From contig JAPPCZ010000023.1 of assembly GCA_028824685.1 (NCBI GenBank), positions 257 through 64,256 on the forward strand: DNA of 64,000 bases. Reading direction: 5' to 3'. Numbering within the stretch: position 1 is the first letter of the stretch; the number at the start of each line of letters is the position of its first letter. The notes beneath the pieces were generated by a model, which ran no database searches, was not told where the DNA came from, and worked only from the letters and a program-made list of their open reading frames with translations. Of this stretch, positions 8,168 to 64,000 are shown piece after piece. The position numbers were made by a program, and so were the translations under genes. The stretch is from Candidatus Poribacteria bacterium. GTDB lineage: Bacteria; Poribacteria; WGA-4E; WGA-3G.

Positions 8168-10519
8168 TCATTTCCTAATAAGCATTTTGCGTGTAGCGGA
8201 GAAGTCGCCAGCATTGATCGTATAGAGATAAACACCACTACTCACAGATTCACCTTTATCATTACGACCATCCCAGTGAACTGCTTGCGATTGTGAAGAA
8301 TAATCTCCCGCAACCATTATCCCTGGTGATAGAGATCGAACCAACTGACCTGTCGGGGTGTAGATGCGAATGGTTACATCACTTTTGTCCGCAAGTTTAA
8401 ACGGAATCCAAGTTTCCGGATTGAAGGGGTTAGGAAAGTTTTGTAGTAGCTGGTTTTTCTTTATCTGCCCAAGTGTGACAAACTGCTTGCCTTTAGGTTC
8501 AACAGGATAGGGTAGGAATGATAACATGTTATTTAAATCCCATAATTGATACTCTCGCTGTGAATTATGCGTAAGTAATAATGATCCATCTTGACTCATG
8601 TTCAGAAACCATGGCAGAGACGGTTGATTGATTAGTCTACTCCTCTGCCAATCCCAGATTTGGAAGTTTTCATCTCGGTATGCAAATAGATAGCGGTTAT
8701 CAACACTAAATTGTATAGGAAACTCTCCATCCAACGTTGTTAAAAGCAGTGGTTTATCCGGTAAGAGTTTCCAAATATGGATTCCATCTTTACCGTTTCC
8801 TGCTAACACTGTAGAACCGTCTGCGTCGGTCATAAATGCAGGTGATGAAGCAAATGCTCCTTCCCATGCATATTGAAAGACGAAAGTATTTTCCTCGCGT
8901 TTCCACAACAGAATCCAATATTTATGGTTATTATCATCTATTTTTGTTCTTCCCGATGTTACAAAATGTCTATCATTTTCACTGAAACCTATCTGATAGC
9001 TGCTGGATAATCCCACTTCAAATGGTGGGATGAGGCGCTGTTTGTTTTCAGGAAATTCAACGTTCAAGATATCTGTCCTACCCCAATGATCTTTAACTGC
9101 AAGCCATTTTCCAGAAGAACTAAAGGTAATCTTCTCAGGAAGTTGGACGTAATGCGGAAATTGTGTTTCAACTTTACCCGTTTGAATGTCACGTATTTCA
9201 ACAAAAGGTTCTTTACCGACTGCGAATTTTTGACTGTCAGGAGAGATAGTGACCGTGTTAAATTTATAGTCTCCTGCTGAAACAAGTAGCCGCATCTGTT
9301 GAGAAGCAACATCCCACGATTTAATAAAGTGTGAAGATATGGCAATTACAGTTTTACCGTCAGGGCTTAACGCAACACTTTTATTATCAGTAGGCCACCA
9401 AGGCCACCAAGCAGCGATGAAATCTGTCCACATCCGGTGTATCCGTTTATTTTCAATGTCCCACATGATTTCGCCATCCGTATATAATAAAAGTGCCTTT
9501 TTACCGTCGGGTGAAATTGTTATAGTTTGTAAACCTTTGAATTCTGTCTCAAACATATCAATCTGTTGTCCTGAATTGACATCCCACACGCGTACTCTCT
9601 CATCCCAACCTACCCATGGATTAGGACCAGTCATACTTATGCTACCTGTTCTTGATGCGACATACAGTCGTTGGCTGTCCGGACTGAATGTCACCATTGT
9701 AACGCTTCCGATTGCGCTTTTCGCCTTCCATAATAAGTGTTGTGCCTTCGTGTGCCACACATAAACAAAACCTGCTATCCTATCAAAGGACGCGATATAT
9801 TTTCCATCAGGACTGATAACCACACCGTTAACCCAGTTTCCGATATGTCCTTCAAGGTGACCTTCTAATTGTAGTCTTTCAACATTCCACAATTCAATAT
9901 CTGGCCGCATTGAGGCGACAATGAGATAGCGACCATCCGGGCTAAAAACCGATGCAAAATCACGAATAGGACTTCGACAAGTCCTCCAACGACCGTTGAC
10001 GTAGTAACATGTGTCCGCGGGTCGACGATCTCCTATCATCGTTCCAATGAACTCACCGGTTTGCCAATTCCAAAGATGAATCTCATCGTCAACAGAGATA
10101 GCAAGCAATGGTTGGATAGGGCTAAATGCTGCGACATCGTTATCGCCTTCAATTTCCCACGTGGCTATCCGTTCAAGGGCATTAACATCCCAAATTTCGA
10201 CTTTAGTTTTCTGTGGATGTCCAAACGAATTAAAAATTGCAAGATGTGTACCATCTGGACTAAACACAACATCGCTGTAATATGTCAGATTGCCAAATTT
10301 ATCCATGACCTCACCTGTATTGGCATCAACAACCTGAATGTGTGATGGGACAACGCGCAGGATTGTCCCGTTGTCAAGGTAGGCATGTTGTTTTGGTAGA
10401 GGCTGTCCAATCTTAGCAATGGGTTCAATTGCAGACGAAATGTAAGGCATGCAGACGATGCAAATCATTGCTATATAAACTTGCAAGTATTGTCTAAATT
10501 GGATGGTAAAGGTTGTCAT
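8168..10519 (-). CDS. secreted WD40/β-propeller repeat protein with T9SS-type (Por_Secre_tail-like) C-terminal domain
   Basis: Many FSPDG/ISPDG/WDV WD40-like blades. The C-terminal ~85 aa (FPNPFNPETWIPFKL...IRIYTPTGQLVRSL...WDGRNDKGESVSSGVYLYTINAGDFSATRKMLIRK) match the T9SS C-terminal sorting domain consensus. Confidence 0.6.
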   Translation of the reverse strand: MTTFTIQFRQYLQVYIAMICIVCMPYISSAIEPIAKIGQPLPKQHAYLDNGTILRVVPSHIQVVDANTGEVMDKFGNLTYYSDVVFSPDGTHLAIFNSFGHPQKTKVEIWDVNALERIATWEIEGDNDVAAFSPIQPLLAISVDDEIHLWNWQTGEFIGTMIGDRRPADTCYYVNGRWRTCRSPIRDFASVFSPDGRYLIVASMRPDIELWNVERLQLEGHLEGHIGNWVNGVVISPDGKYIASFDRIAGFVYVWHTKAQHLLWKAKSAIGSVTMVTFSPDSQRLYVASRTGSISMTGPNPWVGWDERVRVWDVNSGQQIDMFETEFKGLQTITISPDGKKALLLYTDGEIMWDIENKRIHRMWTDFIAAWWPWWPTDNKSVALSPDGKTVIAISSHFIKSWDVASQQMRLLVSAGDYKFNTVTISPDSQKFAVGKEPFVEIRDIQTGKVETQFPHYVQLPEKITFSSSGKWLAVKDHWGRTDILNVEFPENKQRLIPPFEVGLSSSYQIGFSENDRHFVTSGRTKIDDNNHKYWILLWKREENTFVFQYAWEGAFASSPAFMTDADGSTVLAGNGKDGIHIWKLLPDKPLLLTTLDGEFPIQFSVDNRYLFAYRDENFQIWDWQRSRLINQPSLPWFLNMSQDGSLLLTHNSQREYQLWDLNNMLSFLPYPVEPKGKQFVTLGQIKKNQLLQNFPNPFNPETWIPFKLADKSDVTIRIYTPTGQLVRSLSPGIMVAGDYSSQSQAVHWDGRNDKGESVSSGVYLYTINAGDFSATRKMLIRK

Positions 10520-20792: not shown

Positions 20793-20918
20793 AATCTTTA
20801 CACTGTAAGGCGAGGTTTCTGTGTCTTGCTCTACAGTGCTGGAAAAGTAGCATTTAAGTAAACTTGTTATTCTCAAAATAGTCTTATAGACATCTTGTTA
20901 CCCAAGGAAACTGACGCA

Positions 20919-22517
20919 ATGAAATCAAGGACATTCTATCTGAATTTGCTACTAAAGGTTTTACTGTGTAGTATCGTCTTAACGCTATATCTGCCGACCA
21001 GTTTTGCCCAAAACTATACGCAGCTGGGGCTGCCCGAAGGTGCTAAAGCGCGCCTTGGCAAAGGTCGTATTGAGAATATGCTATATTCGTCTGATGGAAA
21101 TGTACTTGCAGTCGTTAGTTCCATCGGTATATGGTTATATGAAACACGTAACTATCAAGTTTTATCCTTCATACCTATAAGGATAAATAGATATGGCGGA
21201 ATTTCGTCTAATAGCATCTCGTTTAGTGCTGACAGTCAAACTGTTATGAGTAGCGATACTGACACAAAATCCTTTCTCCAGTGGGATGTAAATACTGGAA
21301 AACCCAAACAAACACTTAATAATGAAGAAACCCCATCCAGTTCTGATAAACCAAGACCTTCCAACGGAAGTGAAAATAAAAGCCTGCAACGTTGGAATGA
21401 AACAGATGAGAACCTATACAATTTTTTAAAAGAAACAGATGAAGAAATCTCATATATGACTATGACTTTCAGTCCAGATGGACATCCTTTTGCCGCAGCA
21501 GATACACACAATATCATTCGAATATGGGATTTAAGCACACGGAAACTAAAGCGAAAAATTATGGAACATGCAGATTTTGCTTACGTTAAAAAAGTCTCGC
21601 TTAGTCCAGATGGACGTACACTCGTAAGTCTGAACCCGACTGAGCCTATCCAACTCTGGGATGTTAAAACTGGAAAACACAAGAAAACTCTGGCAGGATA
21701 TAAAGTTACCAGTAGAATTAAACCAAAGATTATCTTAGAATTATTGTATGATGAGATTGATAGTGTTGCATTTAGTCCTGATGGAAATACACTTGCAAGC
21801 GGGGGAGAGGATGCAACCATCCGTCTATGGAATATCAAAAGCGGAAAACTTAGAAAAACGTTGAATGGACATTTTGGTTTTATAAAATGCATGGCTTTCA
21901 GTCCAGATGGAAAGTTACTCGCAAGTGGAAGTGGTGACAAGACTATTCTTCTATGGGATTTAGAAAGTGGAACACATGAAGCATTCCTTGCGGAGCGGAT
22001 GAATATGATTGCTTCTATAGCGTTTAGTCAAGATGGTAGCATGTTGGTCGGTGGCAGTACAGTTGGTCACATACATCTGTGGGATGTTGAAACAGGAAAT
22101 CAAAAAAAGACATTTATAGGGCATATTGAAGAAATTAGCAACCTATTGTTTAGTCCAGACGGAAGTGCTATATTAAGTGTCAGTTGGGATGGTACAGTGC
22201 GCTTGTGGGATGTCAATACTGGAGAACAGAAACGGATAGTTACAGGACGAGTCGATAGACATGGAAGGAACTATTGGGGTACTGCGTGGTTTACTTCCGA
22301 TGGGATACCAATTGCGATTAGAAATAATTTTGGTACTATGTATTTATGGGATATAACTAACGGTCAATACATCGGAAGTCTCAAAGGACATTCTTCCTCT
22401 GTCAAAAGTTTATCGTTGAGTGCAGATAGGAAGACACTTGCAACGAATAGTGCTGATGGAACAGTGCTGCTGTGGGATGTTCCTTCCTTGATAAAAGAAA
22501 CATATAGAACAGAATAA
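20919..22517 (+). CDS. secreted WD40 repeat protein (LPEGAKARLGKG N-terminal motif family)
   Basis: Signal peptide present. Many WD40 blades (FSPDG...LASGS.D.TIRLWD). The ATG at 20919 (MKSRTF) is preferred over the TTG tool start at 20895. Confidence 0.65.
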   Translation: MKSRTFYLNLLLKVLLCSIVLTLYLPTSFAQNYTQLGLPEGAKARLGKGRIENMLYSSDGNVLAVVSSIGIWLYETRNYQVLSFIPIRINRYGGISSNSISFSADSQTVMSSDTDTKSFLQWDVNTGKPKQTLNNEETPSSSDKPRPSNGSENKSLQRWNETDENLYNFLKETDEEISYMTMTFSPDGHPFAAADTHNIIRIWDLSTRKLKRKIMEHADFAYVKKVSLSPDGRTLVSLNPTEPIQLWDVKTGKHKKTLAGYKVTSRIKPKIILELLYDEIDSVAFSPDGNTLASGGEDATIRLWNIKSGKLRKTLNGHFGFIKCMAFSPDGKLLASGSGDKTILLWDLESGTHEAFLAERMNMIASIAFSQDGSMLVGGSTVGHIHLWDVETGNQKKTFIGHIEEISNLLFSPDGSAILSVSWDGTVRLWDVNTGEQKRIVTGRVDRHGRNYWGTAWFTSDGIPIAIRNNFGTMYLWDITNGQYIGSLKGHSSSVKSLSLSADRKTLATNSADGTVLLWDVPSLIKETYRTE

Positions 22518-22574
22518 ATAAAAAGGGATATGTTCTGATAAAATGCATATTTTTTAATTGAGGAGTCTTATGCA

Positions 22575-24686
22575 ATGAAAATCAAGATATATATCACTTT
22601 ATTAATGGTTGGTGTTGTCTCAAGTTTTCTGTTGTTTCGGTATGTTTTTACACCTGATCATCCAAATTCTTTTATACATGATACTCCACAGTTGCATCTT
22701 CCAAAAGACGTTAAAGCACGTCTTGGTAAAGGTTTCATAAGGGATGTTGCTTATGCTCCAGATAGTCCACAATTAGCAGTCGCGAGTTCAACTGGTATCT
22801 GGCTCTATGATGCAAATACTTTGGAAGCACAAGCACTACTTTCAGGTCACACGGCTGCTGTGTCAAGTGTTGCGTTCAGTCCGGATGGGAGAACCATCGC
22901 AAGTGGAAGTTTTGATAAGACAATACGGCTTTGGGATATTGCCACAAGAAAAAGTAAGGCGGTATTCATACATGATGTTATGAGATATGATTATGAAATT
23001 AACAACTTGTCATTTATAGGTGATGGTGAGACACTTATAAGTACAACTATATTTGGGATGGATATGTGGGACATCACCACAAGTACATACAAAAAGAGTC
23101 TCAATGCGAGTCGGAGAACTGTTGCCTATAGTCCTGATGCCAAACTAATCGCAAGCGCAGATTCATCCCGAAAAATATATCTTTGGGATGTTGTGGAGAA
23201 CAAGGAATTACATATCCTTGAAGGTCACACAGAATCAGTAAGGTGTTTGGCGTTTAGTCTGGATGGGAAAACCCTGGCCAGTGGTGGTTTTGATGATGTG
23301 ATTCGACTTTGGGATGTTGCAACGTGGACAGAGAAGAAAATTCTCAAGGGACATAAAAAGAGTATCAAAAGCCTTGCCTTTAGCCCAGATGGGCGCACGC
23401 TTGCAAGCGGAAGTAGAGACGATACTGTTCGCTTATGGGATGTTGAATCAGGAAAACGTAAGAAAACACTTAAAGGGCATTCAGAAGAACTTGAAAAGGT
23501 ATTATTCAGTCTGGACGGTCAAACCCTTGTGAGTTGGAGCCAAGACAATATCATTTATCTCTGGGATGTTGCCACTGGGAAGCGAAAGAATACACTCAAA
23601 GGACACACTAATTTTGTCTATGAAGTGGCACTTACTACAAATCCTGACAGGAACAACGTACCGCTTGTTCTACTAATGCGACAGTTTGCGAATAGCGTAT
23701 CTTTCTGTGCTAATGGACAAACACTTGCAAGTATGGGTAAAGATTGGACTATCCGTTTATGGGATGTCAACACTGGGAAACATACAAAGATACTTAAGGG
23801 GCATAAGAGAGAAATTGCCAGTATGGCAATCAGTCCTGACGGTTTGACGATAGCAAGTGGAAGCAGTGATAAGACTATACGGCTGTGGGATATTGCTACG
23901 GGAAAAAGTAAGAAAACATTAAAAGGACACTCATCTGTTGTTTCTACTGTGGCATTCAGTGCTGACGGAACAATGTTAGCGAGTGGAAGCTGGGACAAAA
24001 CCGTACTGTTATGGGACGCTACAACGGGAAGATATAAACAAACGTTTAGAGGACATACAGATGTTGTCAGAAGTGTGATCTTCAGTCCAGATAGCAAAAC
24101 TCTTGCAAGTGAGAGTAACGATGAAACAATCCGTTTATGGGATATTGAAACAAGGACGCATAAAAAAACACTTAAGGGACATAATGCTGTTATCTTTGGT
24201 ATGTTTTTTAGTCCAGATGGGAAAATACTCGCAAGTGGCAGTGTGGATAAAACTATCCGCCTCTGGAACGTTTATAATGGAGAACACAGGAAGACACTCA
24301 AAGGGCATACAAGTACGATTGAAAACATGTCGTTTAGTCCGGATGGAAAAACTCTCGCAAGCGCGAGTTGGGATAATACCGTTCGGTTGTGGGATGTTGC
24401 ATCAGGTGAGCACAAACAAACGCTTGAAGGGCATACAAGTTTTGTCAGAACCGTAGTGTTCAGCCCTGATGGAAAATTTCTTGCAAGTGGGAGTATTGAT
24501 GCCACCTTACAGCTCTGGGATGCTGGCACCGGTGAGCACAAGCAAACTCTTAAAGCACATACAGGTGGTGTTAATATTGTTACTTTCAGTCCGGATGGGA
24601 AAACCCTTGTAACTGGTAGTCAAGACGGGACGGTGCTTGTATGGGATTTCCCTTCTTTGATGGATAGTATCGACACCGCAAAATAG
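22575..24686 (+). CDS. secreted WD40 repeat protein (LPKDVKARLGKG N-terminal motif family)
   Basis: About 14 canonical WD40 repeats (GH...FSPDGKTLASGS.DKTIRLWD). RBS AGGAG upstream of the ATG. Confidence 0.7.
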   Translation: MKIKIYITLLMVGVVSSFLLFRYVFTPDHPNSFIHDTPQLHLPKDVKARLGKGFIRDVAYAPDSPQLAVASSTGIWLYDANTLEAQALLSGHTAAVSSVAFSPDGRTIASGSFDKTIRLWDIATRKSKAVFIHDVMRYDYEINNLSFIGDGETLISTTIFGMDMWDITTSTYKKSLNASRRTVAYSPDAKLIASADSSRKIYLWDVVENKELHILEGHTESVRCLAFSLDGKTLASGGFDDVIRLWDVATWTEKKILKGHKKSIKSLAFSPDGRTLASGSRDDTVRLWDVESGKRKKTLKGHSEELEKVLFSLDGQTLVSWSQDNIIYLWDVATGKRKNTLKGHTNFVYEVALTTNPDRNNVPLVLLMRQFANSVSFCANGQTLASMGKDWTIRLWDVNTGKHTKILKGHKREIASMAISPDGLTIASGSSDKTIRLWDIATGKSKKTLKGHSSVVSTVAFSADGTMLASGSWDKTVLLWDATTGRYKQTFRGHTDVVRSVIFSPDSKTLASESNDETIRLWDIETRTHKKTLKGHNAVIFGMFFSPDGKILASGSVDKTIRLWNVYNGEHRKTLKGHTSTIENMSFSPDGKTLASASWDNTVRLWDVASGEHKQTLEGHTSFVRTVVFSPDGKFLASGSIDATLQLWDAGTGEHKQTLKAHTGGVNIVTFSPDGKTLVTGSQDGTVLVWDFPSLMDSIDTAK

Positions 24687-53319: not shown

Positions 53320-55230
53320 TCATTCTTCCCAAACTGGTCCAAACAGAAGAATTGTCCCATCCGTGGCACCAGTTGCAAGTATTTTTCCATCAGGACTAAA
53401 CGCAACAGTTCCAACATTACCTATATGCCCAGTAAGTGTTTTTATATGTTTCCCGGTAGCAACTTTCCATAGGTGAATCTCGCTATCCCAGCTTCCACTT
53501 GCAAGTATAGATCCGTCAGGCGTAAACGCCATGCTGATGAATTCAGTAGATCTAACATTACCACGTATATCTGCGAAAAGCGTAGTTTTGTGTTCACCAG
53601 TGGCTGTATCCCATAACCGCGCAGTTTCCTCACTTCCGCTTGCGAGTATTTTCCCATCTGGACTGAACGCTAAACTTGAAACGGTTTTCGTATGTCCGAT
53701 AAGTGTATTTATGTTCTCTCCTGTGATGACATTCCATATCCGCACTGTTTGATCATAACCGCCAGTTGCGAGTGTTTTTCCATTCGGGTTGAACGTCACA
53801 CAACCGATATTTCTCGTATGTCCTTCAAGAATAGTGATTATTTTTCCAGTCGTGACATTCCACAAACGAACTACATTTTCATTGTCACAGAAGCTGGCAA
53901 GTGTTCTATTGTCGGGACTGAACACTACCTCTCTAACTAAGTTTGTATGACCTTTAATCATTTTTTTCTGTCTGCCTGTGGTCGCATTCCACAAACGTAT
54001 TGTTCTGTCGCTGCTGCCGCTTGCTAAAGTGTTCCCATCCGGACTAAACGCCACACTGAGAACTATATCTGTATGCCCTTTGAGAGTCTTTTCATGTTTA
54101 CCTGTTGCGATATCCCAAAAATGAATCTCACCATCCCAATCTGAACTTGCGAGTGTCTTACCGTTCGGATGGATTGCAATACTGAGCACATTTTTTGTAT
54201 ACCCTGTAATTGTCGTTGCATCCCATAACCGAATTGTTCCATCTCGACTTACACTTGCGAGTGTGTTATTATCATGACTGAATGCAACACTTAAGATTAT
54301 CTCCGAATGTCCAGTAAGCGTGATGTTGTGTTTGCCTTTGGCAACATCCCACAAACGTATAGTGTTGTCAGAACTTCCACTCGCAAGCAGTTTACCGTCA
54401 GAAGTGAACGCAATACACATGACGTTGTCTGTATGTCCTTTGAGTGTTTTTTTACGCCTTCCTGTCTTAGCACTCCATAACCGTACTGTATTATCTTTGT
54501 AACCTCCACCACTCGCTATGATGCTACCATCCTGATTGAACGCAAGACCGTTGACGTGCCCCTTGTGTCCTTTCAAGATCGAAATGTTCTGACTTGTTGT
54601 AACATCCCATAGCCGTATTGTTTTATCGTCACTACCAGTCGCAAGAATTTTTCCATCTGGACTGAATGCTACATTCCTGACATAGTCGGTATGTCCATAT
54701 AATGTGTTGATATGTTGTCCTGTTGCAACGTCCCACAACCGCACTGTTTCATCACCTTTCTGAGGTAAACTGCTATGGAGACCATAAGTATATCCACATC
54801 CACTTGCAAGCATATTCCCGTCTGGACTGAATGCTACACTTAACACACTTCCTGTATGCTTGAGGATAGCAACCCGTTTTCTCGTGGAAACATCCCACAA
54901 ATATGCCGTTTTGTCCCAGCTACCACTTGCGATCAGGTTGCCATCAGGGCTGAATGCTACACATTGGACATGTGCGGTGTGTCCAGTGAGCAGAGAAACC
55001 TCTTCGTAGGTTCGCACATCATAAAGCCAAACGCCTATTGAGCCAGCAACCGCGAGCAGGTTGCCATCTGGAGAGAACGCTATCTCATGTGCTTCACCTT
55101 TTCCAAGCCGGGCAAGCGCACCTTCAGGGAGTGCAATTTGAGTGCTGGGTTCATATTCTGCAATACTGGTTGATGAGATGACACTTATGATTATCAGTAA
55201 CGTCAGAAAAGAAAAAAATATTGTTTTCAT
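53320..55230 (-). CDS. secreted WD40 repeat protein (LPEGALARLGKG N-terminal motif family)
   Basis: Signal peptide present, followed by ~14 WD40 blades (GHT..V..VAFSPDG..LASGS.D.TIRLWD). Confidence 0.7.
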   Translation of the reverse strand: MKTIFFSFLTLLIIISVISSTSIAEYEPSTQIALPEGALARLGKGEAHEIAFSPDGNLLAVAGSIGVWLYDVRTYEEVSLLTGHTAHVQCVAFSPDGNLIASGSWDKTAYLWDVSTRKRVAILKHTGSVLSVAFSPDGNMLASGCGYTYGLHSSLPQKGDETVRLWDVATGQHINTLYGHTDYVRNVAFSPDGKILATGSDDKTIRLWDVTTSQNISILKGHKGHVNGLAFNQDGSIIASGGGYKDNTVRLWSAKTGRRKKTLKGHTDNVMCIAFTSDGKLLASGSSDNTIRLWDVAKGKHNITLTGHSEIILSVAFSHDNNTLASVSRDGTIRLWDATTITGYTKNVLSIAIHPNGKTLASSDWDGEIHFWDIATGKHEKTLKGHTDIVLSVAFSPDGNTLASGSSDRTIRLWNATTGRQKKMIKGHTNLVREVVFSPDNRTLASFCDNENVVRLWNVTTGKIITILEGHTRNIGCVTFNPNGKTLATGGYDQTVRIWNVITGENINTLIGHTKTVSSLAFSPDGKILASGSEETARLWDTATGEHKTTLFADIRGNVRSTEFISMAFTPDGSILASGSWDSEIHLWKVATGKHIKTLTGHIGNVGTVAFSPDGKILATGATDGTILLFGPVWEE

Positions 55231-55245
55231 TGTAATTATCCTATG

Positions 55246-56844
55246 TCACTTTTTATTCTTTTTTCCTGCTTCCACAGAAATATTAGCCTGAAAAGCGTTG
55301 ACGTTTCCCTTTCCACTGAACCAAGTGCCTGTCGCACCCAATTGAAAAACTTTACCCTCGTCAAAAGGATATTGTATTTTTCCGCTCTGTCCGGACGGAA
55401 TATCCCATACAGAGGTAAGTGCTTCGGTAGGAATCCCTTTTGTAGGCAATTCGGTTTCACTATCAAACAGGTCAAACGATCCGCCAGATTTGGCACTCCC
55501 CATCCGAATATCAATCATAAGCGTGCCACCATCTTCAAACGCAGTAGTATCTATTATAATAACGTTGTAGTCTTGGTCGCCGTATCTTGGCGCGCGAAGA
55601 ATGTGTAAAACCTCTTGCTCAGGATGTTTTTCATTCAGGACAACGTTTGAACCAGTCAAAAGAGAATCTGATGTATTTTCACCAAATCCAGGGAACTTTG
55701 CATCTAAGGAATCGTTCAGGAATGCAAGGTAACCATCCTCTTCCGTGATACCCCTTCGTGTGCAGTCACCAAAGAAATCATTAAGAGGAAGTTTTCCCAT
55801 CACATCTAATTCCGGGGAGATTACCATGCAATCCACAGGCGAATCTTCTTTCCATCCTTTCATAATCGCTTGTGCTAAGGGATGTGTTCTATTAAACGTT
55901 TTGGATTTACGCTTAGGTCTTTTCACCATGTAGGCTTTCTTTCGAGGGGTCCGTTCTAACTCAACGTTAGAAACCCATGTGTTAATAAAGTTTTCGTTCA
56001 GAAATTCGATAATTCGATCCCAATAGAGGACAACTGCCCTCAAACCTTTGCCGCTTCCTCAGCAAGATTCATCATGTAATGGCCCGTCTATAGAGATAAC
56101 ATGAATTAACTTCATCTGTTCCTCAGCCAACTCCACTGCTTTCTCCGGTGGCACCCAATTTATCTGCGCTATTTCGTAGAAACGAAGTATCAGTGCCTGT
56201 TCCGCTTCTTTCTGTGTTATAGCTTCCGTGAAGTCAGCATTCTGCATTTCGTTTTCTATTCCTGAGCGGAGTTCTATTTGGGGACATAGACCTGCATCTG
56301 TGCTTCTATAAGGTTGATCTTTGTACTTTTTCCAAGTGATATCGAGGTTAACTGTGCCTTCAGGGACGTACATTTTGAAGAAAGTTACTTTATTTTTTCC
56401 CCTGTCAATTATCAGATTTCCTTTGAACTGTGAAGGTGTTAACGTACCATCTGCAAAGTTAAATGCTGCGTGAATCCGAAAGGTGATGTCTGCAAATTTA
56501 TCGTTATATGCGCGGAGACATCCCCACAACCCGCGTGGATCATCAGTATCAATGTCTATTTTTATTAATTTCGGATTTGGATGCAGTTGCCGAAGCAATT
56601 CCGTAACACCGGCTTCTTCAATCTGCCAGCACTCACCTACTGAAACCGGTTCCGGTGGAAGAAAAGACTGGAATACTGATGTTGGATAATCCTTTTCTGG
56701 TTCGGCAACACGCAAGTTGGCCAACGCATCCCACTCTATATGAAAATGGGAAAGCGTATGCTCAATCGGTGCAATGAAACCTTTAACAGATACTATTTCA
56801 TCGTTCTTAAGATTGAGTGTAATCTTGTTTGGTGAGGTTTTCAA
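55246..56844 (-). CDS. cassette 1 of novel two-domain family: A domain (ORF 56059..56844) joined in frame through TGA (56059-56061) to B domain (ORF 55246..56043); candidate selenoprotein with ...DESC-U-GSGKG... junction
   Basis: The A ORF ends HDESC followed by TGA. Five codons later (GSGKG) the B ORF continues in the same frame. The only B 'start' is a TTG. A hairpin lies 18-36 nt downstream of the TGA. Confidence 0.4.
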
Positions 56845-58437
56845 TTATTTATTCTCCTCTACAGAAATTTTTGCGTGAAAAGCGTTTATGCCGCCTACTC
56901 CGCCCCATTGGTCTCCAGTTGCACACAATTTGAAACGTTGACCACGATTAAACTGATAGGCAATTCGCCCAGCTTGATTGGGGAATATACCCCAGAGCTT
57001 GGTAAGTGCATCAAGTGCCTTCTCATATTCATCACTTTCTTGACTGTGCCACTCTGTGGGATCAATTCCTTCTCGCACTTTCTCAGTTGGCAATTTTTTA
57101 TCTCCATCCAGTAAAAAAAATAATCCGATTGCATCATCTCTACCGACTTGGATATCAATAGTAAGTGTACCACCATCTGAAAATGCAGTGGTGTTGATAC
57201 CGACAACTGTGTAATCCTGATGTGCCATTTTCGGAGTGTGAATAGTGTCTAATACCTCTTGCGAAGGTTGTTCAGGTGTAAGGATGATGTCTCCCAAGCC
57301 AGGGCGTTTCCCTTCCAAGGAATCCTTGAGAAATTGCATGTATGCTACAGGTTCATCCTCAGGTCGTTGCAGGTTGTCAAGGAATTCATTGAAGTCAACA
57401 CTTCCCATCAAATCAAAATCGTGTGAGATAACGAAACAGTCTACTGGTGAACCTTTTACCCATCCTTTCATTATAGTTTTTGCTAAGGCGTGGTTTGTAT
57501 TGAAGGTTATTCCTTCCTGCTCACGTCTTCTTGCAATAGGGTCTTGCAAGCTGCCTGTCCGTCCTAATTCTGCGTTTTCCACCCAAGTGTTGATGAAATT
57601 TTCGTTCAGGAATTCAATAATTGCGTTTTTAGAGAGAACACCTGTCCTCAAGATTCTGCCGGTGCCTCAGCACGACTCGTCAAAAAGCGGTCCATCTAAT
57701 GAGACAACATGTATCGGTTTCTGTTGAACAGGAGCCAGTTCAAACGCTTCCACAAGCGATACCCAGTTGATTTTGTGGAACATGTAATAATGTGATATTA
57801 GTGTGCGTTCTGCTTGTTCCTGTGTGATTGATGTTTTGTATTCCACATCAGTAGGATATAAGCCCGCGCAGAGCTGAATCTGTGGGCAATAACCGATCTC
57901 CGCAAAATAGTTCCCATCTTCTTGTTTCCAACCGGCATCAAAGTTCAGTGTTGTTGGTGGAACGAACATTTTGAAAGACACAATTTTCTGCTGAATTCGG
58001 TCTATCACTAAATGCCCTGCAAACTGTGATGGCGTGAATTTGCCCTTCTCCATGATAAATTCTGCGTGAACGCGGAACGCGATTTCAGCGAGTGTATCAT
58101 TGTGAGCACGTAGACATGCCCATATTCCCGTGTATTCCTCATCATCATTTTGCAGTCTCAGTTTTGGATTGGGATAAAGTTGCTTCAGCAACGTTAGCAC
58201 ATTTTCTTCTTTAATCTGCCAGCATTCACCCACCGCAACCGATTCCGATGGGAGAAATGCTTGAAAAACAGATGCAGAATACTGCTTTGCCGGTTCAGCA
58301 ACCCGAAAGTTCGCTAATTCGTCCCACTCCACGTGGAAGTTATATTGCGTGTATTCAATCGGCGCGATGAAGGCTTTGACAGACACTTCTGCATTGCCAT
58401 CAAGGTTAAGTGTGATTTTGTTTCCTAAGGTTTTCAT
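56845..58437 (-). CDS. cassette 2: A domain (57667..58437) joined in frame through TGA (57667-57669) to B domain (56845..57651)
   Basis: The mRNA junction reads ...FDESC UGA GTGRI L(TTG) RTGVLS... The hairpin gaggaca-gg-uguucuc (plus strand 57634-57649) follows the TGA. Confidence 0.4.
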
Positions 58438-58438
58438 T

Positions 58439-59971
58439 TCAATTTTCCTCTATAGAGAGCGTCGCTTGAAAAGCGTTGATGCTTCCCTTTTCGTTAGATC
58501 CCCATCCCATGCCAACCAGTTTATAGATTTGTCCATGTTCAAAACGATGTGTCATCTGACCAATTTCGCATGGATCATACCAGCCTACGTCGTATGCACT
58601 ATCAAACATGGTAGCATCTGGTCGTTTGTTAACTGCATCAAAGGAAAGTTTATGTTCTGCATTAAGCAGAAAGAATGAACCATACGCTTTATCGTTTCCC
58701 AATTCCATATCAATAGTGAATGTTCCACCGTTTTCAAACGCAGTCGTATCAATCACGACAACGGTGTAATCCTGATGCCCATATTCTGGCGTGCGAAAAA
58801 CATCTAATACTGTTTGTGAAGGCTGATCAGGGGTAAGAACAATATTTCCTAATCCAGGAAGTTTTCCTGCTAAGGAATCTTTGAGAAACAACAGGTAATT
58901 TTCACTTTCCAAAGTTCCGTCCTCACGTCTGTTGTCTCCCAGATAATCATTGACTGAGACATGTCCTATAGTCTCAAGTTCTGGAGTAATTATCCATGTA
59001 TCTACTGGACCTCTTCGCCATTTATTACTGATGATTGTATGTGCTAAAGGTGGTATTTGCTCTACCTCTATGGTTTCATGCAAGCGTTTCAACTCAACAC
59101 TACGTATCCATGTGTTAATATAATTATCATTTAGTAAATTTATAATTCGTTCGTCGGAGAGGACACCTGCCCTCATGTTTTTCCCGCTTCCTCAGCACGC
59201 TTCATCGTCAAGAGGACCAGCAATTGAAATAGCATGGATCGGTTTCTGCTCTGCTTGTGCTATTTCATAAGCTTCTTCAAAAGGTAACCATTCAATTCGC
59301 TGTGATTTGTAGAATTTCTGTATAAGTATATGTTCCGCTTTTTCCCGTGTAATGCACGCTGTGTACTCTGTATCTTTCAGGACATCTCGCGTCCCACCGT
59401 AGAGTTCAATTTTCGGGCAAACACCACCACCTGTACTATAACCGGATTCATCTTTATGTTTTTTCCAGTTGACATCAAACCAATTTTTATCAGGAACGTG
59501 CTGTTGAAAATAAACAACATCTTCATTAATTCGGTCAATAATGAGATCCCCCGCAAAGTGAGAAGGAGTAAACCAACCGTCTTTTAGTGCAAATTCTGCG
59601 TGGATACGAAACACGATATGAGCATGTTGATCATTATATGCAAGTAAGCATGCCCACAATCCAGAGGAATCTCCAATATCAATATGCATATCCAGATTGG
59701 GATTAGGATTTAGTTGTCGTAGTAGCTCCAATGCACCAGTTTCTTCAACCTGCCAACATTCTCCAACAGCAACAGGATTATTAGGGAGAAAGGCATGGAA
59801 AACTGATGAGAAATACTCCTTTTCTGGTTCGTGAATACGCAAATTCGCCAAGGCATCCCACTCTTCGTGGAAGTTAGGACTCATGTCCTCAATCGGCGCG
59901 ATGACACCTTTGACATTCACTTTTTCATTACTAATCAGATTAAGTGTGATTTTGTTTCCTACGGTTTTCAT
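58439..59971 (-). CDS. cassette 3: A domain (59192..59971) joined in frame through TGA (59192-59194) to B domain (58439..59176)
   Basis: The mRNA junction reads ...DDEAC UGA GSGKN M RAGVLS... This is the only copy with an ATG at the B-domain position. Confidence 0.4.
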
Positions 59972-59972
59972 T

Positions 59973-61535
59973 TTAGTTCTCCTCTACAGAAATTTTTGCC
60001 TTAAAAGCATTGGTGCTGCCTTTCTCACTCCTACCGTAACACCCGGTAGCACCCAACTTAAAAAACTGACCTCGGTCAAAACGATGCGTGAGTTGCCCTG
60101 TCTCATCGGGTTCCAACCACTTCATCGCAAGTACCATGTGTTTAGTCACTCTTTCTGTTGTAGGGAGGTCGTCGTCACCATCAACCAAATAGAAGTGACC
60201 TTCCGCATCGGCTCTACCGGTTTCAATATCAATAGTTAGCGTGCCACCATTTTCAAACACCCTTGTGTCAATTACAACGACTGTGTAATCCTTATAACCA
60301 ACCGTCGGTGTTCGGAAAACATCCATGACCTCCTGAGAAGACATCTCACTGTTGAAAATAATATTACCCAACCCGGGCTGCTTCCCTTCCAAGCACTCCT
60401 TGAGAAACATAAGGTAACTCTCCTCGTCTCGGAGTTTAAATTTATTCCAATTGTAGTCGAAGAATTCATTGACAAGCAGCCTGCCCATCAATTCAAACTC
60501 TGGTGATATGACGAAACAATCCACAGGCGAACCTTTTTTCGATCCGGTCTTCCACCCCTTTATGATTGCTTGTGCCAATGGATGGCTTGTGTCAAATGTC
60601 TTGCCTTCACGTTCGCGTCTTTTGGCAATCGGTTCTCGCAAACTCTGGATACGCCCTAATTCGGCATCTGCTATCCAAGTGTTGATAAAGTTTTCGTTCA
60701 GGAATTCAATGTTTTGGTCGTCAGAGAGCGCACCTGCTCTCAGGCTTTTGCCACTCCCTCAGCACGACTCGTCCGCAAGCGGTCCACCTGATGAAATGGC
60801 GTGAATTGGTTTTTGTAATGCGGATGCCAATTCCAACGCTTCCTCCAGCGGGACCCAGTTAATTTGCGCTGACTTGTAAAAACATAACATTAATGTGTGC
60901 AATGCTTCCTCTTGGGTTATTGCTTCCGTGAATTTGGCATCTTGCAAAACATCTTGTTCACCTGCACAGAGTTCCATTTGCGGACAAAAACCGATGTCCG
61001 CTCCGCAGAGTCCATCTCTAATTTTCCAACGTGCATCAAAGTTCAGTGTGGCATCCGGAACGTGCATCTTGAAGGAGGCAACTTTCTTTTCGTGCTGGTC
61101 GATAACCAAATGTCCAGCAAACTGCGATGGCGCAAACCAACCTCTTTCTAAAACGAATTCCGCATGGACACGGAACAGGATCTCAGCAAACGCATCATTG
61201 TAGGCGCGTAGACATGCCCACAAACCGAAAGAATCCGCTCCAGCAACGTCCAACTCCAATTGCGGGTTTGGATTGAGTTGTCGCAGCAGCGTTAATGCGC
61301 CTTCTTCTTGAATTTGCCAGCATTCACCCACAGAAACCGATTCCGATGGCAGAAATGCTTGAAAAATGGAGGTAGGATATTGCTTCTCTGGCTCAGCAGC
61401 CCGAAAGTTCGCTAATTCGTCCCAGTCCACGTGGTAGTTGCGTTGGGTGTATTCAATCGGTGCGATGAACCCTTTGACTGAGACTTCTGCATCACTGTCA
61501 AGATTAAGCGTGATTTTATCTGATAAAGTCCTCAT
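59973..61535 (-). CDS. cassette 4: A domain (60759..61535) joined in frame through TGA (60759-60761) to B domain (reading frame open from 60758 through the tool ORF 59973..60641)
   Basis: The mRNA junction reads ...ADESC UGA GSGKS L(CTG) RAGALSDDQNIEFLNENFINTW... There is no ATG, GTG or TTG at the expected B N-terminus, only CTG. The tool ORF therefore starts 39 codons later at an internal TTG. Confidence 0.4.
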
Positions 61536-61536
61536 T

Positions 61537-63543
61537 TTAATGCTCCTCTACAGAAATTTTTGCGTGAAAGGCATTTATACGTCCCTTCTCACCGTACCAG
61601 TCGCCTGTGGCTCCAAACTTAAAGACTTTGCCTCCTGCGAAACGATGTCTAATTTTTCCTGCTTTACCGGGTCTAATTCCGGACACAGAGCTGATCGCTT
61701 CAGTCGGATAACCTTCTGTTGGCGGTTCGGTATCGTCCCTAAAGAGGTCAAACGAACCTGAAGTGTCACCACTCCCAACATGGATATCAATAATTAACGT
61801 CCCACTGTTTTCAAAAGCTGTTGTATCAATATTGACAACCGTGTAATCCTGATAACCGGGGCCGGGTGCCCGAAAAGCGGCTAATATCTCCTGTGAGGGA
61901 TGTGCCTTGTCCAGTACGACATCTGGCGTGTCCTCATTCGATTCAAGACGTTTTTCTTCCAAAGGTTCCGTTTGATTCTCCACTACAGTAATTTTTGCGC
62001 GAAAAGCGTTGATACATGGTTCGTTTCTCGCCCAATGTCCGGTGGCACCCAACTTAAAAAATTGACCTTGATCAAAACGATGTATGATTTGACGGGTGTC
62101 ACCGGGTTCTCCCCATGTCCAAGTAAGCATGCCTTTTGGAATCTCTTCTGTTGTGGAGAGTTCGTTATCGCCATCAAACAGATAGAACCCTACTTCCCCC
62201 TCTTCCCTACCGATTTCAAGATCAATGATGAGTGTGCCTCCGTTTTCAAACGCGGTGGCATCAATCACAACTACGGTATAATCCTGATGATTTCCAGCCG
62301 TTGGTGTCCGGAAAAGATCCAACACAAACTGCGATGGCTGCTCAGCAGTAAGAACAATGTTCCCCAATCCAGGTGCTTTCCCTTCCAAGGCTTCCTCAAG
62401 AAATGCAAGATAGTACTCTTGTCTCCAGAGGCCGCTACGTTTACTGTCTTTGCTGAGGTCGTTGACCAATAGTCTACCCATCAGTTCAAATTCGGAGGAT
62501 ATAACCAAACAATCTACCGGTGAGCCTTTTTTGGATCCGGTTTTCCCACCTTTAATAATAGCTTGTGCTAAGGAGTGCGATGTGTCAAAGTGCTTACCTT
62601 CGCGTTCGCGTCTTTTGGCAATCGGTTCCCGTAAGCTATGAATACGTCCTAATTCACAGTTGGGTACCCATGTGTTGATGAAATGTTCGTTCAAAAATTC
62701 AATAATTGTGTCTCTTGAGAGGACACCTGCCCTCAGGCTTTTGCCACTCCCTCAGCAGGATTCGTCCAAGAGCGGCCCATCTATTGAGATCGCATGGATC
62801 GGTTTCTGTTGTATCGGTGCTATCTCCAACGCTTCTTCAAGCGATATCCAGTTAATGTGCTGCGATTTGTAGAAGCAAAGCGTCAACTGGTGCTCCACCT
62901 CTTCTTGCGTAATGGATTCAACGAATTCAGTGTCTCGCACGATGTCTTCTATCCCGGCGCGGAGTTCCATTTGCGGGCAGAAACCGCTATCCGTAATATG
63001 CCCTTCCTCGTCTGGATCCTTCTGCCACCAAGTGTCAAAATTTATGATGCCGTTAGGAACGTACATCTGAAAGAAGGCAACCGATTTTTTAATTCTATCA
63101 ATAACAAGATGTCCCGTAAACTGGGAAGGCGTGAACCAACCGTCCTTTAGATCAAATTGCGCGTGGATACGGAACACAATGTCAGCGAATTCAGCGTCGT
63201 AGCCGCGGAGGCATGCCCACAGGCCTTGAGATTCGTTTTTATGGGTCAGATCCCAACGCATACCCAGAGATGGATTCGGATGAAGCTGCTTCAGCAATTC
63301 CAGAGCACCGGCGTGCTCAATCTCCCAAGGTGTACCCACGGAGACAGCTTCCTTCGGAAGAAAATCGCAGAAAATTGAAACGGGATACTGTTTTTCTGGT
63401 TCAGCAACCCGAAAGTTCGCCAATGTATCCCAGTCCACGTGAAAGTTGCTTCCGGAATACGCAATCGGTGCGATGCAGCCTGTGACAGACACTTCTGCAT
63501 CACTGTCAAGATTAAGCGTGATTTTATCTGATAAAATACTCAT
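61537..63543 (-). CDS. cassette 5: A domain (62752..63543) joined in frame through TGA (62752-62754) to a B domain carrying an extra partial B-domain duplication (reading frame open from 62751 through the tool ORF 61537..62694)
   Basis: The mRNA junction reads ...LDESC UGA GSGKS L(CTG) RAGVLSRDTIIEFLNEHFINTW... The B portion (385 aa) contains a second, N-truncated B-like module (...TAFENSGTLIIDIHVG...NAFHAKISVEEH). Confidence 0.4.
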
Positions 63544-63721
63544 TTTAATTCTCCTCTACAGAAATTTTATTCGCTTATACACATTTTCGGATGCAGTTTT
63601 GCGAATTATTGTGGAGAAATAAAATGAGTTCTAAAGATAGACACTGATTGATCGGACATAACTACATAAAAACAGGGTATCCAATAACGCTGAAGTAGTT
63701 TGAAACGGGCAGACTTTGTGT

Positions 63722-64000
63722 CTATAAGCGATTTTGGTTTTCATACGCAGCAATGTCCGTTTCATACTGCAAAGTCCAACCAATTTCATCAAGACCATTT
63801 AGCAAACAATACTTTTCAAAATCACCAATTTCATAGGTGTGTGCAGTGCCATCAGGACAGATAACCGCTTGCTCTTCTAAATCTACCATCAGTCGATATC
63901 CTTCGGTGTCGTGTGCTTCTTGACTAAGCGATGCGATAACGTCGGCAGGTAAGGCGATAGGTAGGATACCGTTCTTATAACAATTGTTACGAAAGATGTC
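63722..64000 (-). CDS. leuD: 3-isopropylmalate dehydratase small subunit, C-terminal part (5' end lies beyond the window)
   Basis: The minus-strand translation ...GYRLMVDLEEQAVICPDGTAHTYEIGDFEKYCLLNGLDEIGWTLQYETDIAAYENQNRL* matches the LeuD C-terminus (NGLD.IGLTLQ...I..YE). Confidence 0.6.
   Translation of the reverse strand, partial: DIFRNNCYKNGILPIALPADVIASLSQEAHDTEGYRLMVDLEEQAVICPDGTAHTYEIGDFEKYCLLNGLDEIGWTLQYETDIAAYENQNRL

What the first reader, a model, noticed from the sequence alone, without database searches (positions are those of the whole stretch)
57630..57669. Conserved hairpin with compensatory mutations 18-36 nt downstream of each in-frame UGA, with an AGGU-type apical loop (SECIS-like)
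On the mRNA, each of the five UGA codons is followed at about +18 by a stem-loop whose stem sequence differs between copies while pairing is preserved:
- Copy 2: gaggaca-gg-uguucuc.
- Copies 3 and 5: gaggg-caggug-uccuc.
- Copy 4: gagagc-aggugc-gcucuc.
- Copy 1: gagggc-aguu-guccuc.

The loop is (c)AGGU(g) in four copies. This resembles the G/U-containing apical loop of the E. coli fdhF-type bacterial SECIS, which must lie within roughly 40 nt 3' of the UGA. Covariation across paralogs indicates selection on RNA structure, not only on the encoded L-R-A-G-V-L peptide.
Basis: seen in the sequence. Interest (0 to 1): 0.75.

Follow-up and report, generated by a model that had tools for sequence, protein, structure and literature searches.

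The report
Selenocysteine insertion hairpins in Poribacteria genes
Five tandem genes of a sponge-symbiont (Poribacteria-type) genome each carry an in-frame UGA followed by a small conserved RNA hairpin that fits the bacterial selenocysteine-insertion signal, which points to an unannotated, much-amplified family of thioredoxin-fold selenoproteins.

Summary
All five minus-strand paralogs (55246-63543) have one in-frame UGA in the motif D-E-[S/A]-C-UGA-G-[S/T]-G-[K/R]. A 6-bp hairpin with an A-G-[G/U]-U loop starts 17 nt after each UGA.

In Poribacteria DNA fetched from public collections, 250 of 263 homologous junctions carry TGA, and every one has the hairpin at the same place. 83% of the unique junctions meet all four criteria of the published bacterial SECIS model, against 1.2% of other codon positions in the same genes.

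The hairpin codons are the most synonymously constrained stretch within about 200 codons either side. Arg is always AGR, although AGG is the rarest Arg codon in these genes. AGA appears only when its pairing partner is U.

In the sister clade that has Gly or Thr instead of UGA, this excess constraint is absent and SECIS-critical positions have begun to vary.

TGA is a normal stop elsewhere in the window. Published COG tables list SelA, SelB and SelD in three Poribacteria genomes.

The protein matches no Pfam or NCBIfam model. Its middle domain has a DsbD/DsbH-type thioredoxin fold, with the Cys-Sec pair where CxxC normally sits.

Verdict: a genuine bacterial-type SECIS in a new selenoprotein family, that is, a new member of a known kind. 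No homolog has Cys at the Sec position, which is unusual.

The parts
61537..63543 (-). Paralog 1 (668 aa, read through one UGA). It has a duplicated C-terminal beta-sandwich.
59973..61535 (-). Paralog 2 (520 aa, one in-frame UGA).
58439..59971 (-). Paralog 3 (510 aa, one in-frame UGA).
56845..58437 (-). Paralog 4 (530 aa, one in-frame UGA). This is the copy named in the finding.
55246..56844 (-). Paralog 5 (532 aa, one in-frame UGA).
62752..62754 (-). In-frame UGA (putative Sec codon) in LDESC-U-GSGK.
60759..60761 (-). In-frame UGA in ADESC-U-GSGK.
59192..59194 (-). In-frame UGA in DDEAC-U-GSGK.
57667..57669 (-). In-frame UGA in FDESC-U-GTGR.
56059..56061 (-). In-frame UGA in HDESC-U-GSGK.
62719..62734 (-). 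SECIS-type hairpin GAGGGC-AGGU-GUCCUC. Passes all four bSECIS criteria.
60724..60741 (-). SECIS-type hairpin GAGAGC-AGGUGC-GCUCUC (6-nt loop, shifted register). Passes all four criteria.
59159..59174 (-). SECIS-type hairpin GAGGGC-AGGU-GUCCUC. Passes all four criteria.
57634..57649 (-). SECIS-type hairpin GAGGAC-AGGU-GUUCUC. This is the weakest copy: it misses only the -7.5 kcal/mol cut-off and is not in the minimum-energy fold.
56026..56041 (-). SECIS-type hairpin GAGGGC-AGUU-GUCCUC. Passes all four criteria.

Best explanation
Each hairpin is a bacterial-type selenocysteine insertion sequence (bSECIS) lying inside the coding region.

**Proposed mechanism.**
- When the ribosome reaches the UGA, the 6-8 bp stem lies just outside the mRNA channel. 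Its loop A-G-[G/U]-U sits 23 nt downstream of the UGA.
- The stem-loop is bound by SelB carrying Sec-tRNA(Sec), so the UGA is read as selenocysteine and translation continues into the C-terminal half.
- The product is a cytoplasmic protein of about 520 aa with three domains: an N-terminal beta-rich domain, a thioredoxin-fold domain and a C-terminal beta-sandwich.
- Cys-Sec sits at the N-terminus of helix 1 of the thioredoxin fold, where CxxC normally lies. It probably forms a vicinal selenenylsulfide redox centre.

**Shown here.**
- Conservation of the UGA and of the hairpin, and its position and loop features.
- RNA-level selection that is confined to the UGA-bearing clade.
- Normal use of TGA as a stop elsewhere in the window.
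- The thioredoxin fold of the middle domain.

**Inferred.** SelB binding, Sec (rather than Cys) insertion and the redox chemistry.
For: **The UGA is conserved and read through.**
- 250 of 263 homologous junctions in Poribacteria DNA have TGA.
- The frame continues straight after the UGA into G-S-G-K, which is conserved as protein but varies at synonymous sites.

**The hairpin fits the bSECIS model.**
- It is always at the same place.
- 187 of 224 unique junctions pass all four bSECIS criteria, against a 1.2% background. The criteria are taken from the review PMC13188914.

**Codon choice is dictated by the RNA.**
- Arg7 is AGR in 219 of 219, although AGG makes up 7% and AGA 20% of family Arg codons.
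- Ala8 is GCA in 193 of 195; Gly9 is GGT in 165 of 166; Leu11 is CTC in 212 of 219.

**Synonymous constraint is local and clade-specific.**
- The identical-codon fraction is 0.77-0.82 over the hairpin against 0.50 region-wide. These are the top 7 of 373 windows.
- Resampling synonymous codons gives -4.25 kcal/mol against -8.78 observed.

**Covariation.**
- AGA is never paired with a C partner: 0 of 136 against 36 of 85, p = 4e-18.
- In a fixed register, 94% of cells are paired, against 44-82% when the partner is slid.

**Natural control (9 genes without UGA).**
- The hairpin window ranks 192 of 545 for synonymous constraint.
- The Cys codon is TGT in 4 of 8 against 1 of 219 in the Sec clade, p = 3e-6.
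- A UUA Leu breaks the closing pair in 2 of 9, p = 0.008.
- The loop G is lost in one gene.

**Genetic code and machinery.**
- TGA ends 10 of 32 other long ORFs in the window.
- SelA, SelB and SelD COGs are listed for Poribacteria bin44, bin70 and WGA-3G in PMC5649159 Table S4. WGA-3G also carries this family (L012, L058).
- Sec-type hydrogenases are reported in Poribacteria in PMC13582414.

Against: - No homolog has Cys at the Sec position. [quoted passage not shown]
- The hairpin is still largely present in the Gly-type clade, so it is not strictly tied to the UGA. The test for relaxation there rests on only 9 genes.
- Whole-context folds are no more stable than shuffles, and the hairpin is absent from the minimum-energy fold of 2 of 5 window copies.
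- RNAalifold keeps only 3 invariant pairs, because the stem occurs in two registers.
- No sel gene or tRNA-Sec lies in the window or in about 1.1 Mb of fetched loci.
- The model of the Cys-Sec loop has low confidence, pLDDT about 35.
Confidence: 0.85

Rival explanations
1. The UGA is recoded with the help of the hairpin, but not to selenocysteine. Two routes are possible: Cys inserted by a tRNA(ReC)-type tRNA with SelB, or near-cognate read-through (Trp or Gly) stimulated by the downstream structure.
For: - tRNA(ReC) systems that read a SECIS-linked UGA as Cys are described in PMC13582414.
- Non-UGA relatives carry Gly (GGA) or Trp (TGG), each one base away from UGA.
Against: - The loop features and spacing match the SelB-type consensus.
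- SelA, SelB and SelD are reported in Poribacteria.
- An adjacent invariant Cys inside a thioredoxin fold is a typical setting for Sec.
- A leaky stop would not need such a strictly conserved loop sequence.
Confidence: 0.07
2. The hairpin is a passive by-product of the conserved peptide L-R-A-G-V-L-S plus codon bias, and has no RNA function.
For: - The stem is encoded by conserved residues.
- The three outer pairs never vary.
- The hairpin persists in Gly-type genes.
- Context folds are not unusually stable.
Against: - Codon choices go against family usage: AGG is 7% of Arg codons yet about 83% at this site, and CGN never occurs there.
- The strongest synonymous constraint in the +/-200-codon region lies over the hairpin.
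- Synonymous resampling loses half of the stability.
- AGA occurs only when its partner is U.
Confidence: 0.04
3. The UGA is a real stop. The two halves are separate proteins, and the hairpin serves coupling, re-initiation or mRNA stability.
For: Public annotations call the halves as separate ORFs.
Against: - There is no start codon or ribosome-binding site after the UGA. Protein-level conservation begins at the very next codon.
- Non-UGA relatives are single polypeptides of 526-606 aa spanning both halves.
- The UGA falls inside the thioredoxin fold, between strand 1 and helix 1.
Confidence: 0.03
4. The organism uses a genetic code in which UGA is a sense codon.
For: None beyond the five in-frame UGAs themselves.
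Against: - TGA terminates 10 of 32 other long ORFs in the window.
- The only read-through candidates in 64 kb are these five sites.
Confidence: 0.01

Closest known systems
Bacterial SECIS consensus model (Zhang & Gladyshev 2005, bSECISearch; restated in PMC13188914 Fig. 2A)
   Same: - Lies in the coding region directly 3' of the Sec-UGA.
- Loop of 4-6 nt and stem of 6-8 bp.
- G at loop position 1 or 2, followed by G or U.
- 23 nt between the UGA and the loop.
- Energy of about -7.7 to -8.9 kcal/mol in most copies.
   Different: - The stem is short, with no evident lower stem.
- About 17% of copies miss the energy cut-off.
- The stem occurs in two alternative registers across paralogs.
E. coli fdhF SECIS (own knowledge: GGUC tetraloop with G23/U24, a bulged U in the upper stem, 11-nt spacer)
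   Same: - A small apical loop displaying G-G-U.
- The string GCAGGU is shared with fdhF.
- Rare family variants even carry a GGUC loop (L014, L027).
   Different: - There is no bulged U.
- The G-U of the loop lies at +29/+30 rather than +23/+24.
- The spacer between UGA and stem is 17 nt.
[quoted passage not shown]
   Same: A thioredoxin fold of the DsbD/Thioredoxin_7/DsbH type, with Sec at the redox-motif position.
   Different: - No NCBIfam or Pfam hit. One member reaches only E = 0.045 to Thioredox_DsbH.
- The motif is C-U-G-S, not CxxU.
- It carries an extra N-terminal domain of about 250 aa and a C-terminal beta-sandwich.
- No Cys-form homologs were found.
Vicinal Cys-Sec selenoproteins: the mammalian thioredoxin reductase C-terminal GCUG (own knowledge), and the bacterial SaoC and KCU-star families with a CU motif (PMC13188914)
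   Same: Adjacent Cys-Sec followed by Gly ([S/A]-C-U-G).
   Different: The dyad is internal, inside a thioredoxin fold, rather than at a flexible C-terminus. The protein families are unrelated.

Membership tests
bacterial SECIS (consensus model) | Stem-loop in the coding region immediately downstream of an in-frame UGA | tested here: met
   5 of 5 window copies and 250 of 250 TGA junctions.
bacterial SECIS (consensus model) | Apical loop of 3-9 nt and upper stem of 4-16 bp | tested here: met
   Loops of 4 or 6 nt and stems of 6-8 bp.
bacterial SECIS (consensus model) | G in one of the first two loop positions, usually followed by G or U | tested here: met
   Loops are AGGU, AGUU, AGGUGA, AGUUGA, CGUG or GGUC. 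The loop nucleotides at synonymous codon positions are about 99% invariant.
bacterial SECIS (consensus model) | 16-37 nt between the UGA and the apical loop | tested here: met
   23 nt, or 24 in the CGUG and GGUC variants.
bacterial SECIS (consensus model) | Free energy of -7.5 kcal/mol or lower | tested here: inconclusive
   Met by 4 of 5 window copies and 187 of 224 unique junctions. The copy at 57634-57649 misses it.
bacterial SECIS (consensus model) | Bound by SelB, and required for selenium-dependent decoding of the UGA | not testable with these tools
   Needs a reporter assay or a binding assay.
bacterial SECIS (consensus model) | The host encodes selA, selB, selC and selD | tested here: inconclusive
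   None is in the window or in the fetched loci. The literature lists SelA, SelB and SelD COGs in Poribacteria bin44, bin70 and WGA-3G. selC was not checked.
E. coli fdhF-type SECIS | Bulged U in the upper stem, a GGUC loop with G/U at +23/+24, and an 11-nt spacer (features from own knowledge) | tested here: not met
   The stems are perfect, without a bulge. The loop G-U is at +29/+30 and the spacer is 17 nt.
Rfam RNA families | A match to any curated covariance model | tested here: not met
   Only two chance-level hits (E about 9) in 54000-64000. To my knowledge Rfam holds no bacterial SECIS model, so this result says little.
selenoprotein | In-frame UGA conserved across homologs, with coding conservation on both sides | tested here: met
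selenoprotein | Cys-containing homologs aligned with the Sec position (the usual criterion) | tested here: not met
   0 Cys among 263 junctions. The alternatives are Gly 9, Trp 2, Thr 1 and Ser 1.
Thioredoxin_7 / Thioredox_DsbH (Pfam) | HMM match and a CxxC motif | tested here: not met

The most novel reading that the evidence does not exclude
Sec in this family did not evolve from a redox-active Cys. The hairpin either pre-dated the UGA or outlived it.

- In a neighbour-joining tree, the Trp-type outgroup and the Gly-type sister clade are both secreted and lack Sec, yet the Gly clade carries nearly the same hairpin.
- On this reading, a coding-region hairpin that already existed was taken over as a SECIS, and a UGG or GGA codon next to a lone Cys mutated to UGA.
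- That created a Cys-Sec centre, which then amplified to at least 5-8 copies per genome in a sponge symbiont.

This would be a gain of Sec from a non-Cys codon, against the usual rule.
Probability: 0.2. Interest if true: 0.75.

Novelty: new member of a known kind. Interest (0 to 1): 0.6.

Why it matters
- **An unrecognised family.** It adds a selenoprotein family that current annotation splits into two "hypothetical" halves. One fragment is even labelled as a BrnA antitoxin. The family matches no Pfam or NCBIfam model, including the models that cover curated selenoprotein families.
- **Invisible to a standard search method.** Because no Cys-form homolog exists, search strategies based on Cys/Sec pairs cannot find it.
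- **Large amplification.** Up to 6 tandem copies lie in one locus and at least 8 in one chromosome. 372 stretches encoding a relative were found across species-representative genomes, and every one of the 77 distinct loci kept and listed is from Poribacteria or an unnamed uncultured MAG. This suggests Poribacteria invest heavily in selenium, which fits the reported enrichment of SelA and SelB in sponge symbionts.
- **A natural experiment.** The Sec-type and Gly-type sister clades allow a direct look at how a SECIS decays or arises.

Tried and rejected
- **Rfam scan of 54-64 kb:** nothing.
- **Pfam and NCBIfam on full-length proteins:** nothing.
- **PDB sequence-profile search:** nothing.
- **RNAalifold on 125 junctions:** only the 3 invariant outer pairs were kept, because the stem uses two registers. 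I therefore relied on per-sequence folds, codon statistics and contingency tests.
- **Whole-context fold z-scores:** not significant.
- **Metagenome scan for more Gly-type genes:** it returned only Sec-type loci. Gly-type DNA was obtained one protein at a time instead.
- **Majority-codon comparison between the two clades:** not significant, 5 of 5 against a 63% baseline, P = 0.10. The origin of the hairpin in the Gly clade stays open.
- **tblastn with E. coli SelA, SelB and SelD, and ARAGORN, on all fetched loci:** no sel genes and no tRNA-Sec.
- **Scan of the window and all loci for other read-through ORFs:** no other selenoprotein candidates.
- **First AlphaFold model (14 sequences):** poor, pLDDT 48. 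In the second model (118 rows, pLDDT 61) the middle and C-terminal domains are usable; the N-terminal domain and the Cys-Sec loop are not.
- **Genetic-code reassignment:** rejected.

Full report
**What is in the window.** Between 55246 and 63543 on the minus strand lie five head-to-tail paralogs of 510-668 aa, separated by 0-1 nt. Each is interrupted by exactly one in-frame TGA. The TGA always sits in D-E-[S/A]-C-TGA-G-[S/T]-G-[K/R]-x-[L/M]-R-[A/T]-[G/V]-[V/A]-L. A scan of all six frames for ORF pairs joined by a single TGA finds only these five sites in 64 kb. TGA terminates 10 of 32 other long ORFs, so the genetic code is standard. ARAGORN finds no tRNA in the window.

**The observation.** Counting the U of UGA as nt 1, nt 21-26 (GAGGGC, GAGAGC or GAGGAC) pair with nt 31-36, or with nt 33-38 in the copy at 60759. 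The loop is AGGU in three copies, AGUU in one and AGGUGC in one. Two corrections apply:
- The stems are 6 bp and the loops 4 or 6 nt.
- Among the five window copies the differences are one-sided changes or a register shift, not classical double compensations.

**Wider family.** Homologs are found in Candidatus Poribacteria, which are sponge symbionts.
- In 77 genome loci, 19 metagenome loci and the loci fetched for individual proteins, I located 263 junctions by tblastn with the junction peptide.
- Of these, 250 have TGA, 9 a Gly codon, 2 TGG, 1 ACT and 1 TCA. None has Cys.
- Up to six Sec-type copies stand in tandem (L031), and eight lie in two loci of one chromosome (L026 and L027).
- Every TGA junction has a hairpin at the same place. 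There are 97 different 24-nt versions, nearly all 6-8 bp and about -8.6 to -11.6 kcal/mol.

**Fit to the SECIS model.** The review PMC13188914 gives the bacterial consensus: a loop of 3-9 nt, a stem of 4-16 bp, G in the first two loop positions (mostly G[G|U]), 16-37 nt from the UGA, and an energy of -7.5 kcal/mol or lower.
- An explicit implementation passes 187 of 224 unique junctions. The usual solution has a spacing of 23 nt, a 6-bp stem and an AGGU loop.
- The failures mostly carry the same hairpin weakened by G.U pairs or a mismatch and miss the energy cut.
- The same test passes only 322 of 27010 (1.2%) other codon positions in the same genes.
- In the window, four copies pass. The copy at the finding's coordinates fails only on energy.

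**Selection on the RNA.** Codon tables for 219 unique junctions and family codon usage show:
- Arg7 is AGG or AGA in 219 of 219, although AGG is the rarest Arg codon of the family (7%), AGA is 20% and CGN is 73%.
- Ala8 is GCA in 193 of 195, and Thr and Ser at that position are ACA and UCA.
- Gly9 is GGT in 165 of 166, Val at that position is GTT in 46 of 46, and Leu11 is CTC in 212 of 219.
- Neighbouring Gly, Ser, Lys and Leu codons vary freely.

For 74 junctions less than 85% identical in the central 120 residues, the fraction of identical codons among same-residue pairs is 0.50 over +/-200 codons. It is 0.77-0.82 in the 7-codon windows covering the hairpin, which are the top seven of 373 windows. 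Resampling synonymous codons from family usage gives a mean of -4.25 kcal/mol against -8.78 observed.

**Covariation.**
- AGA at Arg7 never occurs when its partner would be C: 0 of 136 against 36 of 85, p = 4e-18.
- In a fixed register, pair 33-42 is GC 84, GU 8, AU 6, and pair 34-41 is GU 80, GC 15, AU 11, UA 4.
- 94% of cells are paired, against 44-82% when the partner is slid. The covariation score exceeds all 500 shuffles.
- RNAalifold keeps only the three invariant pairs, because two registers coexist.

**Natural control.** A sister clade lacks the UGA (Gly or Thr at the position). Its members are 553-606 aa, have signal peptides, and sit next to an ECF-sigma-like gene and ABC-2 permeases.
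- It still shows GAGGGC-AGUU-GCUCUC in most members.
- Within that clade the hairpin codons are no more conserved than the rest of the gene: 0.69 against 0.65, rank 192 of 545.
- Positions that are about 99% fixed in the Sec clade have started to vary. The Cys codon is TGT in 4 of 8 (p = 3e-6). Leu6 is UUA in 2 of 9, which breaks the closing pair (p = 0.008). The loop is AGUC in one gene and AACU in another.
- The sample is small, so this is supportive and not conclusive.
- In a neighbour-joining tree rooted on the two Trp-type sequences, the Gly clade is sister to the whole Sec clade. Whether its hairpin is a relic or a precursor cannot be decided, and a majority-codon test between the clades was not significant.

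**Energy caveat.** 90-nt context folds are not more stable than shuffles and contain the hairpin in 3 of 5 window copies. About half of all junctions show it when the UGA region is included. When nt 1-12 are removed, which I take as roughly what a ribosome paused at the UGA would occlude, 92% (214 of 232) show it. The 3' arm can alternatively pair with the UGA-GGG itself, because UGAGGG is repeated in the 5' arm.

**Sec machinery.** No sel genes or tRNA-Sec occur in the window or in about 1.1 Mb of fetched loci.
- Slaby et al. 2017 (PMC5649159) report SelA and SelB as enriched in sponge symbionts.
- Their Table S4 lists SelA, SelB and SelD COG counts of 2/1/1 for Poribacteria bin70, 4/1/2 for bin44 and 2/1/1 for Ca. 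Poribacteria WGA-3G.
- WGA-3G also carries this family (L012, L058).
- PMC13582414 reports Sec-type group 4 hydrogenases in Poribacteria. It also notes that SECIS-like stems can persist in non-Sec relatives.

**The protein.**
- There are no Pfam, NCBIfam or PDB sequence matches. One member touches Thioredox_DsbH at E = 0.045.
- An AlphaFold model of the Gly-type relative P0003 (118-row alignment, pLDDT 61) is confident for residues about 275-420 and 430-556.
- The C-terminal domain is a collagen-binding, PPC or GOLD-like beta-sandwich.
- The Cys-Sec dyad lies in the loop between strand 1 and helix 1, where CxxC sits in thioredoxins. That loop is modelled with low confidence.
- The selenoprotein inventory in PMC13188914 lists CU-motif families and a Trx7/PDZ family. 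The HMM libraries searched here gave no match, so this family appears to be undescribed there.

**Conclusion.** The hairpins are best explained as bacterial-type SECIS elements that direct Sec insertion at five UGA codons of a new, Poribacteria-specific, highly amplified thioredoxin-fold selenoprotein family with a Cys-Sec centre (confidence about 0.85).

It is a new member of a known kind. The mechanism is conventional. The family, its amplification and the complete absence of Cys-form homologs are the interesting parts.

Noticed in passing
all junctions (window 56059, 57667, 59192, 60759, 62752; loci L001-L110): No homolog has Cys at the Sec position. There are 250 TGA, 9 Gly, 2 Trp, 1 Thr and 1 Ser. 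This is unusual for selenoproteins and would hide the family from searches based on Cys/Sec pairs.
   Followed up: partly
L001:10001-11674; L098-L102, L108-L110: The Gly/Thr-type relatives have signal peptides and always lie between an ECF-sigma-like gene and two ABC-2 permease genes. The sigma-like protein ends in the family's own beta-sandwich motif (...EKGSVNAFHARISIR, L098 near 2950).
   Followed up: no
window, nt 1-6 and 19-25 after each UGA (e.g. 62749-62754 and 62730-62736): UGAGGG occurs twice: at the Sec codon and again in the 5' arm of the hairpin. The 3' arm CUCUC can therefore pair with the UGA region instead (86-100% of 224 junctions). This gives a mutually exclusive alternative helix.
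   Followed up: no
codon before each UGA (e.g. window 57670-57672): The Cys codon 5' of the UGA is TGC in 218 of 219 Sec-type junctions but TGT in 4 of 8 Gly-type genes. This looks like a constraint on the nucleotide context of the recoded UGA.
   Followed up: partly
L022:4426: One copy has TCA (Ser) instead of TGA, with a fully intact hairpin. It could be a very recent mutation, a pseudogene or a sequencing error.
   Followed up: no
protein P0076: A 541-aa ORF joins the C-terminal half of one unit to the N-terminal half of a diverged second unit ending ...VFDDESC. This suggests fused two-unit genes with two UGAs.
   Followed up: no
window 61537-63543: The first paralog carries a second copy of the C-terminal beta-sandwich domain (668 aa). 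Many database C-terminal fragments (374-409 aa) show the same duplication.
   Followed up: no
window 8168-10519, 20895-24686, 53320-55230: Several large WD40-repeat proteins are present, one directly downstream of the paralog array. There are also PSCyt2/PSD1 (DUF1549/DUF1553), BlaR1-type peptidase M56, AIM24 and a DNA methylase. This is gene content typical of Poribacteria.
   Followed up: no
L014:13151, L027:8386: A divergent pair of copies (peptide LRAGPLS) has a 7-bp stem with a GGUC loop. To my knowledge this is the same tetraloop as in E. coli fdhF.
   Followed up: no
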